Assembly: GCA_002010065.2 (NCBI GenBank)
Contig: MTMD02000002.1
Location: forward strand, 320,001 to 384,000
Direction: 5' to 3'
Length of the DNA: 64,000 bases
Source of the DNA: Candidatus Pyrohabitans jungbluthii
GTDB lineage: Archaea; Hydrothermarchaeota; Hydrothermarchaeia; Hydrothermarchaeales; BMS3B
This document shows, in pieces, positions 9,451 through 60,107 of this stretch (positions within the stretch are counted from its first letter, which is position 1; every line of letters starts with the position of its first letter). The translations under genes and the position numbers were made by a program. A model generated the notes under the pieces. The model did not search any database. It was given only the letters and a program-made list of their open reading frames with translations, and had not been told where the DNA came from.

Positions 9451-10107
9451 GTGGCGAGAGTTCTTGTGGTTGACGACGACGAAGCTGTGTGTAGAAGTTT
9501 GAAACAGACGCTAACCTCAAACGGCTTCAGTGTGGATGCCACAACTTCACCACAGGAGGCTATTGAACTTCTGCGCGATAACAGCTATGACATTGCAATC
9601 TACGACCTTGTAATGCCCGACATTGACGGCATTGAGCTTCTCAGAGAGACAAAAAAGATAAACTCTGCCCTGCCTGTGGTTATGATAACAGCTTTTGCAA
9701 CAATTGAGAGCGCCGTCGAAGCGATGAAGCGGGGTGCAAGTGACTATATAGAGAAGCCTTTCACCAAGAAGGATATTCTCACAATTGTGAGGCGTGCTTT
9801 AGAAGAGGCCAAGTTCAGAAAGAGCATTTTAGAGCTCTCCACCAGTAGAGAGGTTGAAGAGGTTATAAGCTCCCTCAACTCCCCGCTGAGGAGATTGATA
9901 CTCAGCTACCTTGAGGAGAGGGGGGAGAAGCTCAGCTTCACCCAGCTCCAGCGAGGCGTAGGCGAGCGCGATGCCACAAAGTTCAACTTCCACCTGAGAA
10001 AGCTGAAGGAAGCAGGTCTGGTGGAGCAGGACGAAGATAAGCGATACACACTTACACAGAAGGGCAGGAAGGCTTTGGAGGTAATAAGCAGCCTTGCTGA
10101 GGTGTAG
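9451..10107 (+). CDS. Response regulator, REC fused to ArsR-like winged HTH
   Basis: VLVVDDD, YDLVMP, ITAF, KPF; C-terminal LNSPLRRLIL...FTQL...KFNFHLRKLKEAGLV...YTLTQKG. Confidence 0.9.
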   Translation: MARVLVVDDDEAVCRSLKQTLTSNGFSVDATTSPQEAIELLRDNSYDIAIYDLVMPDIDGIELLRETKKINSALPVVMITAFATIESAVEAMKRGASDYIEKPFTKKDILTIVRRALEEAKFRKSILELSTSREVEEVISSLNSPLRRLILSYLEERGEKLSFTQLQRGVGERDATKFNFHLRKLKEAGLVEQDEDKRYTLTQKGRKALEVISSLAEV

Positions 10108-10364: not shown

Positions 10365-11015
10365 TTATAATCTCTCCGTCTCCAGTCTCAACAACAGTCT
10401 TTCCACTATTGCCACACCTTCGCTGGTTAGCTGATACTGTCCTGCCCTGTTTTTACTCACTATTCCCGCCTCGCTGAGAACGCGAAGATGAAAGCTCAGT
10501 TTTGATGGGTCGTCCATCTCTATGCTCCTGGCAACCTCAGAAAACCTCCTCGCGCCTGCGTGAAGGAGGTAGAGAGCTATCTTCTTGCGTATCGGGTTTG
10601 AAAGCGCCTTGATTACAGCATCATTAAGCCTCGCCTCAACTTTGCGCTCTAACCTCGCCTCTTCTAAGGTTTTCTTGACGATACTCACCAGCTCGCCTAC
10701 ATTGAAGGGCTTTACAAGAAAGTCACTCGCTCCGAGCTTCATCGCCTCCACCACGTCAGCTATAGAGGGAAAGGCGCTGATTATTATCACCTTGGTCTCC
10801 GGTGAAATCCTCTTTATCTCATCCAGTGCTTCTAGGCCACGGATATCTGGAAGCACCAGGTCGAGGAGCACCAGGTCAGGTTGATTTTCCGTCAGCCTGG
10901 CAATCCCATCGGCGGCGCTCTCCGCGGTCAACACCTCAAAGCCATACCTGCGCAGTGCCTTTTCCAGCACGCTTGTAGTGTGCCTATCGTCATCCACAAT
11001 AAGTATGGTGCTCAT
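10365..11015 (-). CDS. Response regulator, REC + ArsR-like wHTH (no adjacent kinase)
   Basis: ILIVDDD, LDLVLP, KPF; ALSNPIRKKI...RFSEV...SKLSFHLRVLSEAGIV. Confidence 0.9.
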   Translation of the reverse strand: MSTILIVDDDRHTTSVLEKALRRYGFEVLTAESAADGIARLTENQPDLVLLDLVLPDIRGLEALDEIKRISPETKVIIISAFPSIADVVEAMKLGASDFLVKPFNVGELVSIVKKTLEEARLERKVEARLNDAVIKALSNPIRKKIALYLLHAGARRFSEVARSIEMDDPSKLSFHLRVLSEAGIVSKNRAGQYQLTSEGVAIVERLLLRLETERL

Positions 11016-12574: not shown

Positions 12575-14028
12575 AAGCAAGCGTTAGCACCAAGATGATG
12601 CTCGCCATAGGCTTAATCGTATTTCTCTCCGTAGAGGGCATCTTCTACTACATGAGCGAAAGCCACGAGAGGAGCATGATGGAGCAGCTCCGCCAGCAGG
12701 CGAAGAGCATCGCTGATCAAATACTCCTGATAAGGCTTTGGGCGGCGGAGCATAGAGAGCGCGTTGCGCCTGTGCCCGCGGAGCTCACCTACGAGCTCTC
12801 AGAACTTTCAAATGAACTGTACGACTACAAGATTCAGCTTGTAACCCTAAGACCCAGAGACCCCGAAAACTATCCCTCTGATAATTTTGAGAGAAGGGTG
12901 ATTCAGGAGTTTATACAGGGAAAGAGCAAGGAAGAGTATGCGATAAATGGCGAGTTTTACGAGTATGCTGTACCTCTCTATGTAGAAGAACCCTGCCTTA
13001 AATGCCACATTGACCAGGGCTATCGCGTGGGCGACCTGCGCGGCGCACTGGTGGTAGAGATACCAGTTAGCGAGGTGATGGCATCTCTCGCAAAAACCAG
13101 GAAGGAACTTATTGTCTATGGATTTGTGATTTCTCTCGGCATTATGCTGGCGATTCTGGGTATTATGAGGATAGTGGTCATAAAGCCTTTGAACAAGGTT
13201 AAGGAAGCCGCGATGAAGCTAGCGAAGCGCGACTATTCTGCTCGCGTTGAGGTGAGCAACGACGATGAATTGGGCGAATTAGCGAGGGTTTTCAACAGCA
13301 TGGTGGAGGAGCTCAAGAACAAAGAGGCGCAGGTGATTCAAAGCGAGAAGATGGCGACCGTTGGTAAGCTCGCCGCTGGAATAGCGCATCAGATAAACAA
13401 CCCCCTCGCCAATATAATACTCTACTCCCAGATTCACCGTGAAGAGGTGGACGATGAGGAGACAAAAAAGGTGCTGGAGATAATTGAAGAGGAAGCTTCT
13501 CTCGCCTCAAAGGTTGTACAAGGCCTTCTGGACTTCTCCAGGTATCGGGAATTCAAGCGCGAGGCTGTGCAGATTAACGAGGTTATAAGAAAAATGTTAA
13601 ATATACTTAAACCTCAACTACAGTACAAGAACATTAAGCTGGAACTAAACCTCGACGAGAACTTGCCGGAGATTCAGGGCGATTCAGCAAAACTTCTCGA
13701 CGCCTTCATAAACATTGCCACAAATGCGATAGATGCCATGAAGGAAGGTGGAAGGCTGAGTATACGCACAGGTAAAAGCGATGGAAAAGTGGTGGTGGAA
13801 ATCGCCGACACCGGCATGGGCATACCTGAGGAGCATCTCAGCAAGATATTTGACCCCTTCTTCACCACCAAGGAGGTGGGCAAGGGCACGGGCCTAGGAC
13901 TTTATATTACTTATAGTATAATTAATAAGCATGGTGGCGAGATAGAGGTGGAGAGCAAGGTCGGAAAGGGTACAAAATTTACTATATATCTACCAGGTGA
14001 GGTGAATGCAGGAAATACTTATAGTTGA
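12571..14028 (+). CDS. Heme-c-binding sensor histidine kinase (DUF3365/Tll0287-like domain-HAMP-HisKA-HATPase)
   Basis: Extracellular [13 protein letters not shown]...[15 protein letters not shown]...[11 protein letters not shown] between two TM helices; HAMP; H-box AHQINNP; HATPase boxes. Confidence 0.88.
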
Positions 14029-14659
14029 GGACGACCCCAAACTTAGAGAGGGGCTTAGAATACTCCTGGAAAAGAAGGGGTACTCGCCCAAGATCGCCGA
14101 GGATGGGGTAAAGGCAATAAATATGATTAAAAAGCAGAAATTTGACCTGGTAATCACTGATCTCGTGATGCCAGGCGCTGATGGCATGGAAGTGCTGAGG
14201 AATGTTAAGAAGTACTCCCCCCTCACCAAGGTGATAATAATCACCGCCTTTGGTACCGTCGATAGTGCCGTGCGCGCGATGAAGATGGGGGCGAGCGACT
14301 ATATACTAAAACCCTTTAAGGTGGAAGAGATAAGAAACAAGATTCTGCGTCTGCTGGAAGAGACCCGCATAGAGGAGGAAAGCAGGGAGAAGATGGAGAC
14401 GCAGGAAACCGGCAAGGACGTGCTCAAGTCTCTCTCAAACCCCATAAGGCGCAGGATAATGGAGTACCTCCATGCCAAGGGTAAGGCGAGGTTCACGGAT
14501 ATAATGAACTACCTTGGTATAGATGAGCCAGCTAAACTCGGCTTTCACCTGCGGGTGCTGAAGCAGGCCGGGCTAATAGCGCAGGATGAAAACCGCCACT
14601 ACTATATCTCCGAGGCTGGAAAGCGCGCTTTCATGACACTGCTTTCCCTGGAAGGGTAG
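14006..14659 (+). CDS. Response regulator, REC + ArsR-like wHTH
   Basis: ILIVEDD, TDLVMP, KPF; SLSNPIRRRI...RFTDI...KLGFHLRVLKQAGLI. Confidence 0.9.
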   Translation: MQEILIVEDDPKLREGLRILLEKKGYSPKIAEDGVKAINMIKKQKFDLVITDLVMPGADGMEVLRNVKKYSPLTKVIIITAFGTVDSAVRAMKMGASDYILKPFKVEEIRNKILRLLEETRIEEESREKMETQETGKDVLKSLSNPIRRRIMEYLHAKGKARFTDIMNYLGIDEPAKLGFHLRVLKQAGLIAQDENRHYYISEAGKRAFMTLLSLEG

Positions 14660-58120: not shown

Positions 58121-58650
58121 TCCACCTCCTTGTAGGCATGGAGAAGCGCCGGCAGCATGCCGATTACAGTGCAGGTCTCGAAGGGCACAGCTTTGCCTGA
58201 AAGCTCTAAGTGATGCCTAGCCATGCTCAGCACCTCTTTTGGCAAGCCCCGCCTCCCCAAGCCCATTACCACCAGGAAGGACTTGCCTCGCTTAGCTCGC
58301 GCAGCCAGCTCTCTGGGTGAGATGTGCTTCTCCTGTGCAGGCTTCGACGTTGCTGCCACCACCTCGCCGAGCTGGGGAGGGAACCCACGGCGGGGAAACT
58401 CAAAGATGTTCAGCCTGCCCTTAGATGCGAGTAGCTTCAAGTAGCGTCCGCCTTCGCCTATGGTGGTGTCGCTCGCAAGTTCTTCCACAATGCTTGAGAA
58501 GCTGCCCTCAAAAGGGAAGCCAAAAAGCGCAAGGTTTACCTCAAAGGCATAGCAAACTGGCGCCGCCCTGGCTATGCTTCGCTTGTGGATGTCGTGCAAC
58601 CTCGCAGCATCGTAGCTGTTGTATAACCCCAGGGTTATCCTTCCTCCCAT
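58117..58650 (-). CDS. DUF531-family (SPOUT-like) protein
   Basis: TLGLYNSYD, RAAPVCYAF, TTIGEGG, GFPPQLG, GLGRRGLPK, ETCT. Confidence 0.8.
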   Translation of the reverse strand: MGGRITLGLYNSYDAARLHDIHKRSIARAAPVCYAFEVNLALFGFPFEGSFSSIVEELASDTTIGEGGRYLKLLASKGRLNIFEFPRRGFPPQLGEVVAATSKPAQEKHISPRELAARAKRGKSFLVVMGLGRRGLPKEVLSMARHHLELSGKAVPFETCTVIGMLPALLHAYKEVE

Positions 58651-59084
58651 ATTGCATTACCCGCCTGTGCGAGAAGCGCCGCGAAGGCAGCTACCGACGC
58701 TGCTCTGAGTTCTCCCTCACGAGCCCCACGAAGCTTGTCCTCGAGTAAAGCAACGCACTCCTCAAGCGTTAGCGCTCCCTGAAGAAACGCTTGAGCAAGT
58801 AAGCTCTCGGCGAAGTCGCCCAGTTTGTGTTTATCTACCCGCGTGCCCGCACGCTCTCGCAGTCCTGCCTTAACCACAGCCTCCGCGAGAATTGAGTTGG
58901 AAACCTTCCTTCCCACCACCCTGCCAAGCGCCCGCGAAAGCGCGAGGGAGTAGATTAGGTTGGCTATGCTATCGCCAAGCGGAGAAAGCTCAGCAAAGCT
59001 GGTATCAAATCCCAGTACCGGGTAGCTTCTTTTCTTCTCCTTAGCTTTCCAGCTTCTTCTGCAGCTCATCAAACTCCTTCGCAA
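58635..59084 (-). CDS. Archaeal RNase III-like domain protein (start uncertain)
   Basis: LGDSIANLIYSLALS, KVSNSILAEA, DKHKLGDFAESL. Confidence 0.7.
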   Translation of the reverse strand: MRRSLMSCRRSWKAKEKKRSYPVLGFDTSFAELSPLGDSIANLIYSLALSRALGRVVGRKVSNSILAEAVVKAGLRERAGTRVDKHKLGDFAESLLAQAFLQGALTLEECVALLEDKLRGAREGELRAASVAAFAALLAQAGNAIWEEG

Positions 59085-59526
59085 CTTCTTTAAGCACCTG
59101 CTTCAGCACAAAGCGAGGTGGCGAGGGAATGCCGTAGTCCAGCTTTTTTGCCTCGCTCACATAGCGTTCGAGTATTGACTTGGCTATGCCCGTCTTCTCA
59201 GCCAGCTCGTCTAAGTCGGCCTTGAGCAGGGCGTTAGCTGTGGTAATCCCCGCCTCCGCAAGCTGCTCCTTCCGCTTTGGGCCTATGCCCGGCACGGCTG
59301 TTATCTCAACCTCCTTCTCACTCTCGCGGGGCACCTCTATCCCAGCTTTAACCTTGAGGTAGACCACGGGCTGAGAGAGCAGCGGATGGGCTATGCGATA
59401 CGACGCAGCCACTACCGCGTCGTTTTGGTTAAGTGCCTGACGCAGCAGATTGCAGAAGGTGTGATCTTCACCTGCGAGCTCAAACTCCAGCTCAGTATCG
59501 TTCTCCCTGATAACCCTTATCTCCAC
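59041..59526 (-). CDS. rpoL: RNA polymerase subunit Rpo11 (L) with internal HhH insertion
   Basis: ELEFELAGEDHTFCNLL...ASYRIAHPL; located between csl4 and tfs; 161 aa. Confidence 0.9.
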   Translation of the reverse strand: MEIRVIRENDTELEFELAGEDHTFCNLLRQALNQNDAVVAASYRIAHPLLSQPVVYLKVKAGIEVPRESEKEVEITAVPGIGPKRKEQLAEAGITTANALLKADLDELAEKTGIAKSILERYVSEAKKLDYGIPSPPRFVLKQVLKEVAKEFDELQKKLES

Positions 59527-59537
59527 GTCACAACCCC

Positions 59538-60107
59538 CTATATAACTCCCTTGCCATACTCTGTGGAATATTTCCGCGATTCATACCTGCCACAGTTGGG
59601 GCACACTAGCTTATTACCCTCAAGCCTCAGCGCTATGTTGCAGTTGGTGCAGTAAGCTTTGATGGCGCCAAGCGGGCGCTCAACCATAGACAAGGCGATG
59701 GGCACGCGCCTGGTGTTGGTAACCTTGGCAAGAACCACGTCGCCTATCTTGATCTCACGGTCTATGTCCTGTACATAGGTGTTGCGAAGCTGGGAGATGT
59801 GGATAGTGCCGTAAACATTGCCAGGAAGCTCGCGGCGGCTGCGCATAAGGCGTATAAGCTTCACCAAAGCAAACTGCTGCTTTACGTCTATTACCTTGCA
59901 CACCGCGATGTCGCCCACGCGAGGCTCTGGTATGATGTTTGTCTTGGGCTCAACCTCAATCTTACGCTCTTTCATGTCTATCTTGAGCACACCCGTAAGA
60001 GATGCGAATATCCTGCCGCTCTCCTCGTAGGTGCCTTTCCCCGGGATGAACTCCTCGCTGAACCCCAGCTCCTTGCCGGGGACAACAAACTCACCTGCCT
60101 CAACCAT
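59538..60107 (-). CDS. csl4: Exosome complex RNA-binding protein Csl4
   Basis: FVVPG..LG..EEFIPGKGTY, S1 domain IHISQ, GDVVLAKV, Zn ribbon CTNC...CPNCG..E.RK. Confidence 0.93.
   Translation of the reverse strand: MVEAGEFVVPGKELGFSEEFIPGKGTYEESGRIFASLTGVLKIDMKERKIEVEPKTNIIPEPRVGDIAVCKVIDVKQQFALVKLIRLMRSRRELPGNVYGTIHISQLRNTYVQDIDREIKIGDVVLAKVTNTRRVPIALSMVERPLGAIKAYCTNCNIALRLEGNKLVCPNCGRYESRKYSTEYGKGVI

What the first reader, a model, noticed from the sequence alone, without database searches (positions are those of the whole stretch)
59041..59526. RNA polymerase Rpo11 (RpoL) with an inserted helix-hairpin-helix domain, a possible alpha-CTD analogue
Seen: a 161-aa Rpo11, where the usual size is about 90-100 aa. 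Between the last beta-strand (PVVYLKVK) and the terminal helix (PRFVLKQVLKEV) lies about 70 aa: EITAVPGIGPKRKEQLAEAGITTANALLKADLDELAEKTGIAKSILERYVSEAKK, a tandem HhH like RadA-N or NusA-AR. Known: Rpo3/Rpo11 are homologous to the bacterial alpha N-terminal domain, and bacterial alpha-CTD is an HhH-fold domain contacting UP elements and activators; archaeal RNAP lacks it. Inference: a convergently acquired DNA- or activator-contact module on the assembly platform, notable in a genome with DNA-binding response regulators.
Basis: partly seen in the sequence, partly recalled or inferred. Interest (0 to 1): 0.75.

Follow-up and report, generated by a model that had tools for sequence, protein, structure and literature searches.

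The report
Rpo11 carrying an inserted HhH domain
In a whole phylum of uncultured hot-vent archaea, the small RNA polymerase subunit Rpo11 carries an extra, well-conserved domain of a DNA-binding type; I found no paper describing it and its role is untested.

Summary
Window 59041-59526 (-) encodes a 161-aa Rpo11. A complete (HhH)2 domain (residues 74-128) sits between the last beta-strand and the C-terminal helix.

It is the only rpoL in a 99.95%-complete genome. It lies at the canonical Csl4-rpoL position. Contigs from independent sequencing runs cover it without indels.

The long form is found in 36 of 38 genomes of the phylum Hydrothermarchaeota. The other two show no rpoL at all. All 57 other archaeal loci examined encode 86-113 aa. 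The insert is under purifying selection: dN/dS 0.01-0.20, against 0.07-0.27 for the core.

By fold the insert is a RadA/Rad51 N-terminal-type domain, not a bacterial alpha-CTD. Its nearest relative in the same genome is the HhH tail of ribosomal protein eL13, at 60% identity.

My best reading is a non-sequence-specific nucleic-acid contact, or a docking module, held on the polymerase's outer platform. The alpha-CTD analogy is only partly supported. The domain is anchored at both ends, and long Rpo11 also occurs in 11 genomes where the tested REC-wHTH query found no full-length match.

This is a new variant of a known kind, of moderate interest.

The parts
59041..59526 (-). rpoL gene: Rpo11 of 161 aa plus stop codon (59041-59043), GTG start at 59524-59526
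   Evidence: ORF list. Pfam RNA_pol_L_2 + HHH_5. Only rpoL in the genome.
59347..59526 (-). Rpo11 core, residues 1-60: four strands and helix 22-34 with the conserved GEDHTFCN motif
   Evidence: Pfam match 12-62. AF2 secondary structure. Foldseek rmsd 1.3-1.6 A to archaeal Rpo11 chains. Invariant E20, H22, F24, C25 in 19 sequences.
59308..59346 (-). Connector 1, residues 61-73 (AGIEVPRESEKEV), acidic and poorly conserved
   Evidence: Mean pairwise identity 0.32 over 24 sequences. pLDDT about 81 for block 61-70.
59143..59307 (-). (HhH)2 domain, residues 74-128, RadA/Rad51 N-terminal type
   Evidence: HHH_5 42.7 bits. HHH_5 in 23 of 24 inserts. AF2 of the insert alone, pLDDT 91.9. Foldseek RadA/Rad51 NTD TMq 0.67-0.77. 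dN/dS 0.01-0.20.
59281..59289 (-). First hairpin, G80-I81-G82
   Evidence: G80 in 23 of 24 and G82 in 21 of 24 long-form sequences. It is followed by K84 (20 of 24) and R85 (15 of 24). The glycine hairpin is missing or deleted in L022 and L024.
59185..59190 (-). Second hairpin, G113-I114
   Evidence: G113 in 19 of 24 sequences.
59116..59142 (-). Connector 2, residues 129-137 (LDYGIPSPP) with a conserved L-D-Y/F-G start
   Evidence: L129 17, D130 17, Y/F131 18 and G132 14 of 24. pLDDT 89-92. This motif is absent from eL13-HhH, which ends after the domain.
59044..59115 (-). C-terminal helix, residues 138-161, equivalent to the last helix of ordinary Rpo11
   Evidence: AF2 helix 136-160. Foldseek alignments to 1xpp and 8xmc_K run across the insert (159-160 columns, TMt 0.75-0.77).
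59538..60107 (-). Context: exosome cap subunit Csl4, directly upstream of rpoL
   Evidence: Pfam ECR1_N + S1. Csl4 lies next to rpoL in 23 of 23 long-form and 43 of 57 short-form loci.
58635..59084 (-). Context: archaeal RNase III-like ORF directly downstream. As listed, its 5' end overlaps rpoL by 44 nt.
   Evidence: Pfam Ribonucleas_3_2, match starting at residue 32. Present after rpoL in 21 of 23 long-form loci.

Best explanation
This is the organism's one and only Rpo11. It has kept its normal fold and has gained a complete RadA-N-terminal-type (HhH)2 domain in the loop between the last strand and the C-terminal helix. The gain dates to the ancestor of the phylum Hydrothermarchaeota and has been kept by selection, so every RNA polymerase in these cells carries it.

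Shown: the architecture, single copy, positional orthology, phylum-wide distribution, purifying selection, the fold class, and near-identity of the module to the HhH tail of eL13.

Inferred: the domain sits on the solvent side of the Rpo3/Rpo11 assembly platform, held fairly rigidly by two short connectors. There it acts as a non-sequence-specific binder of a nucleic-acid backbone, most likely duplex DNA, through its G-h-G hairpins and the basic residues after hairpin 1. That would give the polymerase an extra general hold on DNA or chromatin. It would raise affinity, retention or salt and heat tolerance. It would not act as a mobile promoter-element reader.
For: - **Architecture:**
- **Normal Rpo11 fold kept around the insert:** Foldseek rmsd 1.3-1.6 A over 63-65 columns to archaeal Rpo11 chains. 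Alignments to 1xpp and 8xmc_K span the insert at TMt 0.75-0.77.
- **Single copy:** PF13656 gives 1 match and PF01193 gives only Rpo3 plus this gene, in a genome 99.95% complete.
- **Orthologous position:** Csl4 is adjacent in 23 of 23 long-form and 43 of 57 short-form loci.
- **Distribution:** 36 of 38 phylum genomes across all 12 families. The 2 misses have no rpoL detectable at all. All 57 loci from other archaea encode 86-113 aa. Only 9 of the 150 listed hits in a 1.84-billion-protein library are long-form (8 full-length, plus P0026, which matches only residues 1-100).
- **Selection:** mean pairwise identity is 0.49 for the HhH domain against 0.55 for the core and 0.38 for the C-helix. dN/dS is 0.01-0.20 in 11 usable pairs against 0.07-0.27 for the core in 12 pairs, out of 13 pairs examined.
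- **Binding features:** G80 23, G82 21, G113 19, K84 20 and R85 15 of 24. Net charge of the domain runs from -3 to +10, positive in 17 of 24.
- **Fold:** RadA/Rad51 N-terminal domain, rmsd 1.2-1.8 A in the best alignments.
- **Precedent that HhH modules add general DNA affinity:** Topo V's HhH repeats contribute to salt resistance and processivity (PMC4200833 passage).
- **Precedent for an archaeal polymerase add-on touching duplex DNA:** Rpo13 (PMC13257274 passage).
Against: - No binding was tested, and I could not place the model on a polymerase structure. Whether the domain can reach any DNA or RNA path is therefore unknown.
- The platform lies away from the DNA cleft (my recollection of polymerase structures, not a call), and the connectors are short.
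- The most divergent members (L022, L024, P0040, P0029) lack the first glycine hairpin yet keep the domain. The conserved constraint may therefore not be canonical DNA-backbone binding.
- In the window's own genus the domain is neutral, with net charge -2 to +2.
- The nearest relative of the module sits on a ribosomal protein, where duplex-DNA binding is not an obvious need.
- RadA/Rad51 N-terminal domains also bind proteins. PDB entry 8xbw, listed, is titled as this domain bound to a histone H4 tail.
Confidence: 0.5

Rival explanations
1. Protein-docking module. The (HhH)2 domain is a landing pad on the platform for a transcription, chromatin or RNA-processing factor, not a nucleic-acid binder.
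For: The fold class also mediates protein contacts. The RAD51 N-terminal domain entry 8xbw, listed, is titled as bound to a histone H4 tail. Deep-branching members keep the domain without the first glycine hairpin. The domain is neutral in the window's genus. The Rpb3/Rpb11 platform is a known contact for Mediator and activators in eukaryotes (PMC13257274 passage).
Against: No partner is known or suggested by gene context. The neighbours are the same as in archaea with ordinary Rpo11. Canonical hairpins and the following basic residues are kept in most members.
Confidence: 0.2
2. Alpha-CTD analogue. The domain contacts upstream promoter DNA or DNA-bound activators such as the REC-wHTH regulators and mediates activation.
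For: Alpha-CTD uses an HhH motif on the homologous platform subunit (PMC3326320 passage; PMC13257274 passage). Five of 24 inserts give weak PF03118 matches, best E 5e-4. The genome has 29 REC-domain matches, and REC + ArsR-type wHTH proteins lie in the window.
Against: The window's insert gives no PF03118 match at E <= 10. No alpha-CTD chain is among the listed Foldseek hits. The domain is inserted with two short, confidently modelled connectors, not tethered by a long flexible linker. Eleven genomes carry the long Rpo11 without a full-length match to the tested REC-wHTH protein, four of them 95-100% complete. Trans_reg_C is absent. There is one copy per polymerase, not two.
Confidence: 0.12
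3. Structural passenger. A promiscuous small helical module that stabilises or solubilises the subunit, or helps assembly at high temperature, with no ligand of its own.
For: Very similar modules are attached to unrelated housekeeping proteins: eL13 in this phylum, eL32 in a PDB ribosome entry (1s72_Y) and P0035, and small membrane-anchored proteins. The eL13 fusion is patchy in the phylum, with 4 genomes holding a short eL13 of 69-96 aa. That shows the module can be dispensable on one carrier.
Against: On Rpo11 it was never lost in the 36 genomes where rpoL was found. Its dN/dS is as low as or lower than that of the core. Surface features typical of ligand binding (hairpins, K84, R85) are conserved.
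Confidence: 0.12
4. Artefact or non-functional copy: a misassembly, a gene fusion error, a mobile insertion, or a second normal rpoL that does the real work.
For: None found.
Against: Both borders of the insert are bridged by contigs from four runs in three studies, with no indels or joints. There are 36 independent genomes and purifying selection. No second rpoL exists. No intein or transposase family appears among the Pfam hits.
Confidence: 0.01

Closest known systems
Canonical archaeal Rpo11 / RpoL (e.g. PDB 4qjv, 4qiw, 2pa8, 8cro, 7ok0)
   Same: N-terminal strands and helix with the GEDHTxxN motif, a C-terminal helix, and gene position next to Csl4. Rmsd is 1.3-1.6 A over 63-65 columns.
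   Different: A 77-residue insertion carrying a whole (HhH)2 domain lies between the last strand and the last helix. NCBIfam RpoL equivalog models match only residues 1-65 and stay under their cut-offs (best 62.5 bits against 73).
RadA / Rad51 N-terminal (HhH)2 domain
   Same: Same fold: TMq 0.67-0.77, rmsd 1.2-1.8 A in the best alignments, 22-37% identity. Identity to the genome's own RadA N-terminus is 35% over 57 residues. Both are HHH_5.
   Different: Here the domain is inserted in a polymerase subunit instead of preceding a recombinase ATPase core. RadA is a far weaker match to the insert profile than eL13-HhH (30.3 against 83.8 bits).
eL13-HhH fusion of the same phylum (L082:1942-2352, 136 aa)
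   Same: The HhH module is 60% identical over 52 residues. It scores 56-90 bits against the Rpo11-insert profile, inside the range of the Rpo11 inserts themselves.
   Different: It is C-terminal behind a lysine-rich linker, not inserted. It is patchy in the phylum: the fused form was seen in 13 genomes, and a short eL13 without it in 4. The HhH tree is unresolved, so the direction of transfer is unknown.
Bacterial RNA polymerase alpha C-terminal domain (PF03118)
   Same: A small HhH-type domain on the homologous platform subunit. It binds DNA without direct base contacts (PMC3326320 passage).
   Different: No family-level match for the window's insert, and 5 of 24 weak matches. It is not among the listed fold hits. 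Alpha-CTD is C-terminal on a long flexible linker and present twice per enzyme. Here the domain is internal, doubly anchored and present once.
Topoisomerase V HhH repeats and HhH-polymerase chimeras
   Same: HhH modules added to a nucleic-acid enzyme to raise general DNA affinity, salt resistance and processivity (PMC4200833 passage and its reference list).
   Different: Topo V has 24 repeats at its C-terminus. Here there is one (HhH)2 unit inside a non-catalytic subunit, and no activity data exist.
Rpo13 of Thermoprotei and the 4Fe-4S domain of Rpo3
   Same: Lineage-restricted additions to the archaeal polymerase. Rpo13 contacts duplex DNA (PMC13257274 passage). This genome's Rpo3 carries the ferredoxin-like domain.
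   Different: Rpo13 is a separate subunit near Rpo5. The Rpo3 domain is an Fe-S module with an assembly role. Neither is an HhH domain or lies in Rpo11.

Membership tests
Rpo11 / RpoL / Rpb11 | Match to the Rpb11-type dimerisation domain model above its curated cut-off | tested here: met
   PF13656 63.5 bits against cut-off 27, residues 12-62.
Rpo11 / RpoL / Rpb11 | Full-length match to an NCBIfam RpoL equivalog above its cut-off | tested here: not met
   Best is NF002240 at 62.5 bits against cut-off 73. All nine RpoL models match only residues 1-65 because the insert breaks the alignment.
Rpo11 / RpoL / Rpb11 | Fold: two strand pairs, one helix and a C-terminal helix packed as in solved Rpo11 | tested here: met
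   AF2 pLDDT 90.2. Foldseek gives rmsd 1.3-1.6 A to archaeal Rpo11, and alignments across the insert to 1xpp and 8xmc_K reach TMt 0.75-0.77. This is a predicted model, not a solved structure.
Rpo11 / RpoL / Rpb11 | Orthologous gene position and single copy | tested here: met
   Csl4 is adjacent in 23 of 23 long-form and 43 of 57 short-form loci. One rpoL and one rpo3 in the genome.
Rpo11 / RpoL / Rpb11 | Heterodimer with Rpo3 and incorporation into the polymerase | not testable with these tools
   Inferred from single copy and conservation. No complex with Rpo3 was modelled.
(HhH)2 domain, HHH_5 / RadA-N type | Match to HHH_5 above its cut-off | tested here: met
   42.7 bits against 27. 23 of 24 inserts match at E <= 10, best E 1.6e-13.
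(HhH)2 domain, HHH_5 / RadA-N type | Two helix-hairpin-helix units with glycine hairpins | tested here: met
   G80 23, G82 21 and G113 19 of 24. Four helices at 83-126. Exceptions are L022 and L024, where hairpin 1 is degenerate.
(HhH)2 domain, HHH_5 / RadA-N type | Fold match to solved (HhH)2 domains | tested here: met
   RadA/Rad51 N-terminal domains at TMq 0.67-0.77. Foldseek E-values are weak (7e-3 and above) because the domain is short.
(HhH)2 domain, HHH_5 / RadA-N type | Non-sequence-specific nucleic-acid binding | not testable with these tools
Bacterial alpha-CTD (PF03118) | Match to the RNA_pol_A_CTD model | tested here: not met
   Not in the window insert's list at E <= 10. Five of 24 inserts match at E <= 10, best 5e-4.
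Bacterial alpha-CTD (PF03118) | Fold closest to solved alpha-CTD structures | tested here: not met
   No alpha-CTD chain is among the listed Foldseek hits up to rank 50. Lower ranks were not inspected.
Bacterial alpha-CTD (PF03118) | C-terminal position on a long flexible linker | tested here: not met
   It is an internal insertion with connectors of 13 and 9 residues, pLDDT about 81-92.

The most novel reading that the evidence does not exclude
The same HhH module sits on the RNA polymerase (Rpo11) and on the large ribosomal subunit (eL13) of one organism. It could be a shared address tag that holds both machines on the nucleoid or on one common partner. That would be a lineage-specific way to keep transcription and translation together in space. 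A variant is that the Rpo11 copy gives this phylum a bacterial-style platform contact for DNA-bound activators.
Probability: 0.07. Interest if true: 0.8.

Novelty: new variant of a known kind. Interest (0 to 1): 0.55.

Why it matters
Archaeal RNA polymerase is usually described as lacking any counterpart of the bacterial alpha-CTD. Apart from Rpo13 in some Thermoprotei, it also lacks accessory nucleic-acid-binding parts on its core. Here a whole phylum has built a DNA-binding-type domain into the smallest platform subunit and has kept it under selection. If it binds DNA or a factor, it is a new way for an archaeal polymerase to hold its template or to be regulated.

It is easy to test with recombinant Rpo3/Rpo11, or by grafting the domain into a tractable archaeon. 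The twin module on eL13 adds a second open question.

Databases already record the domain pair for these proteins (precomputed PF14520 + PF13656). Six full-text searches aimed at it found no paper that describes it.

Tried and rejected
- **Complex prediction.** I tested whether the Rpo11 HhH domain (alignment A3) pairs with the eL13 HhH domain (A4, residues 76-136). The verdict was 'no answer' (score 0.00, mark 0.32). I treat this as no evidence either way.
- **RNA evidence.** No RNA holder is listed for this stretch. This says nothing about expression.
- **Tree of 142 HhH domains.** It used 59 columns, and 77 of 138 inner branches were left open. Rpo11 and eL13 domains intermix and RadA lies apart. 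I draw no donor or order of events from it.
- **Placement on a polymerase or pre-initiation complex.** This was not possible because the tools return no coordinates. My statements on where the platform lies are recalled.
- **Intein or mobile-element reading.** Rejected, since there are no such Pfam hits and the insert is conserved phylum-wide.
- **Second rpoL.** Rejected.
- **NusA-AR likeness.** Never seen in the hit lists.
- **OmpR-type output domain.** Absent.
- **REC-wHTH co-occurrence.** Only one query protein was used, and 293 matches were not listed. Divergent regulators could have been missed.
- **Literature.** Searches found nothing on an Rpo11 HhH insertion.
  - Of PMC13257274, PMC8204694, PMC11162788, PMC3326320 and PMC4200833 I saw only passages found by term.
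  - For one search I saw the listing of 15 of 19 papers.
  - Supplements were closed and could hold domain tables I did not see.
- **The label 'Hydrothermarchaeota'.** It comes from record titles and one NCBI protein name. The phylum is the tool's unnamed GTDB group.
Full report
**The observation**

The minus-strand ORF at 59041..59526 is 161 aa with a GTG start. A GGGGG run lies 8-12 nt upstream, read directly. Pfam places the Rpb11-type dimerisation domain at residues 12-62 (63.5 bits, cut-off 27). It places an HHH_5 helix-hairpin-helix domain at residues 74-128 (42.7 bits, cut-off 27). NCBIfam RpoL models match only residues 1-65 and stay under their cut-offs. RadA, topoisomerase, eL32 and Y-family polymerase models touch residues 65-129.

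**Structure**

An AlphaFold2 model built on 17 relatives has mean pLDDT 90.2 and pTM 0.69. Its elements, in order, are:
- strands 2-8 and 12-18;
- helix 22-34;
- strands 38-44 and 54-59;
- four short helices between 83 and 126;
- one long helix at 136-160.

Foldseek against the PDB puts archaeal Rpo11 chains first, at rmsd 1.3-1.6 A over 63-65 columns. Two Rpo11/Rpb11-type chains (1xpp, 8xmc_K) align across the whole protein with the middle gapped out (159-160 columns, TMt 0.75-0.77). The last helix is therefore modelled where an ordinary Rpo11 has it. RadA/Rad51 chains appear at ranks 47-50 for the middle part.

Folded alone, the insert has pLDDT 91.9. The listed fold hits are RadA/Rad51-family N-terminal domains plus two Y-family polymerase (Dpo4-type) entries, with TMq 0.67-0.77. 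No bacterial alpha-CTD is among them. The Foldseek E-values for so short a domain are weak, 7e-3 at best.

**Is it the working rpoL?**

The window lies in a genome of 1.99 Mb that is 99.95% complete. PF13656 finds one gene there, and PF01193 finds only that gene plus one Rpo3. The Rpo3 is an ordinary 257-aa protein with the insert domain and a 4Fe-4S domain.

The gene order is methyltransferase, Csl4, rpoL, RNase III-like, NUDIX, TFS. Among 23 long-form loci from other genomes, the counts are:
- Csl4 adjacent in 23;
- RNase III-like in 21;
- NUDIX in 21;
- TFS in 20;
- methyltransferase in 19.

Among 57 loci with a short rpoL from other archaea, Csl4 is adjacent in 43, the methyltransferase in 43 and TFS in 40. 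Some loci are cut by contig ends. The long gene is thus the positional orthologue of ordinary rpoL.

Contigs from four sequencing runs in three studies, none flagged as a possible source, cover the gene. Pieces bridge both borders of the insert. No indels and no joints are reported, and one strain variant carries 33 substitutions and no gaps. No single piece spans the whole gene.

**Distribution**

- The word-indexed protein search returned 22 proteins. Twenty are 156-178 aa long, and 19 of these have both domains precomputed. Two are ordinary 89-aa forms. One is named by NCBI as from Candidatus Pyrohabitans, a Hydrothermarchaeota genus.
- The scan of one genome per species found 224 relatives and kept the best 80. 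Twenty-three loci (L002-L024) encode 145-180 aa with the insert. Their titles read Hydrothermarchaeota, or a generic 'archaeon' or 'Methanobacteriota'.
- The other 57 loci come from Bathyarchaeia, Hadarchaeota, Woesearchaeota, Nezhaarchaeota, Methanosarcinales and others. They encode 86-113 aa.
- In the tool's phylum set, 36 of 38 genomes from all 12 families have a match running from residue 1-2 through the insert.
- The two misses (G021, 93% complete; G029, 86% complete) show no rpoL of any kind with PF13656.
- One genome that NCBI labels Hydrothermarchaeota (L058, G038) has a normal 93-aa Rpo11. It is not in that phylum set, and its placement is unknown.
- The profile-free search of 1.84 billion representatives lists only 9 long-form clusters among the best 150, one of them a truncated 129-aa entry.

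**Selection**

Over 24 aligned sequences, mean pairwise identity by region is:

| Region | Mean pairwise identity |
|---|---|
| Core | 0.55 |
| HhH domain | 0.49 |
| C-terminal helix | 0.38 |
| Connector 1 | 0.32 |
| Connector 2 | 0.35 |

In 13 close pairs, dN/dS of the HhH domain is 0.01-0.20 (11 usable pairs). For the core plus C-helix it is 0.07-0.27 (12 usable pairs).

The hairpin glycines are largely kept: G80 in 23, G82 in 21 and G113 in 19 of 24. So are K84 (20) and R85 (15). The net charge of the domain runs from -3 to +10. It is 0 in the window.

The two sequences from the most distant family (L022, L024), and the representatives P0040 and P0029, keep the domain. Their first hairpin is degenerate or deleted.

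**Origin**

A profile of the insert, searched against all ORFs of the genome, scores as follows:

| Hit in the genome | Bits |
|---|---|
| C-terminal domain of a 136-aa protein | 83.8 |
| Y-family polymerase | 31.8 |
| RadA | 30.3 |
| DUF2589-DUF4332 protein | 23.2 |
| Mrr-type protein | 19.0 |

The 136-aa protein is ribosomal protein eL13 fused to HHH_5. The two modules are 60% identical over 52 residues, against 35% over 57 for RadA.

eL13-HhH proteins score 56-90 bits against the insert profile, within the range of the Rpo11 inserts themselves. The fused eL13 was seen in 13 phylum genomes. A short eL13 of 69-96 aa was seen in 4. No eL13 was found with this query in the three genomes of the two outlying families. 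The domain tree does not resolve who gave the module to whom.

**How it most likely works**

The shown facts say this is a selected, universal part of this phylum's polymerase, with the fold and most signature residues of a backbone-binding (HhH)2 unit.

I infer that it sits on the outer side of the Rpo3/Rpo11 platform. Two short connectors, modelled with confidence, would hold it there, and the second begins with a conserved L-D-Y/F-G motif that eL13-HhH lacks. I infer further that it adds a general hold on duplex nucleic acid. This parallels what is reported for the HhH repeats of topoisomerase V (PMC4200833 passage). It also parallels the DNA-contacting extra subunit Rpo13 (PMC13257274 passage). 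I give this 0.5.

A protein-docking role gets 0.2. It is favoured by the loss of hairpin 1 in deep branches and by the neutral charge in this genus.

**The alpha-CTD reading**

The background is sound, but the specific tests fail:
- the window's insert gives no PF03118 match, and only 5 of 24 inserts give weak ones;
- no alpha-CTD is among the listed fold hits;
- the domain is an internal, doubly anchored insertion, not a tethered C-terminal domain.

The REC + ArsR-type winged-HTH regulators exist, with three in the window and 29 REC matches in the genome. However, 12 of 38 phylum genomes lack a full-length match to the one tested. Eleven of those 12 carry the long Rpo11, and four of them are 95-100% complete. 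I give this reading 0.12.

**Novelty and verdict**

Sequence databases already hold these proteins with both domains marked. Eight full-text searches, six of them aimed at Rpo11 or RpoL with HhH terms, returned no paper that describes an HhH insertion in Rpo11. I could not see supplements.

I rate it a new variant of a known kind: a lineage-specific accessory domain on a core polymerase subunit. Interest is 0.55. The finding is solid and clean and the question it opens is easy to test, but the function is unproven and the organisms are uncultured.

Noticed in passing
G000:C5:13944-14351 (= L082:1942-2352, minus strand): Ribosomal protein eL13 of the same genome carries a C-terminal HHH_5 domain behind a lysine-rich linker. 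The domain is 60% identical to the Rpo11 insert. The fusion is patchy in the phylum: fused in 13 genomes, short eL13 in 4, and none found in the two outlying families.
   Followed up: partly
window 9451-10107 (+), 10365-11015 (-), 14006-14659 (+): Three response regulators, each with a receiver domain plus an ArsR-type winged HTH (HTH_20/HTH_5/DUF7347). The genome has 29 receiver-domain matches, which is many for an archaeon of 2 Mb.
   Followed up: partly
P0056 and P0161 (proteins): Other unusual Rpo11 forms exist in metagenomes. P0056 (130 aa) has a C-terminal UBA_HYPK-type domain. P0161 (137 aa) has an E1_FCCH-like stretch after the core. Their organisms are unknown.
   Followed up: partly
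L012 and L013 (one MAG; G015 contigs C52 and C89): Two different long-form rpoL genes lie in one metagenome bin, each preceded by a Csl4 match. This is either a mixed bin or a true duplication.
   Followed up: no
L058 / L086 (G038:C4:61270-61488): A genome labelled Hydrothermarchaeota by NCBI has an ordinary 93-aa Rpo11 and is not in the tool's phylum set. Its placement would help date the insertion.
   Followed up: no
L022, L024, P0040, P0029: The most divergent long forms keep the inserted domain but have lost or deleted the first G-h-G hairpin.
   Followed up: partly
window 58635-59084 (-): As listed, the RNase III-like ORF downstream of rpoL overlaps the rpoL 3' end by 44 nt. Its Pfam match starts only at residue 32, so the true start is probably further downstream.
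   Followed up: no
P0128, P0132, P0111, P0146 (proteins): Small proteins consist of a hydrophobic or proline-rich N-terminus followed by a very similar HHH_5 module. The module is widely reused in uncultured archaea.
   Followed up: no
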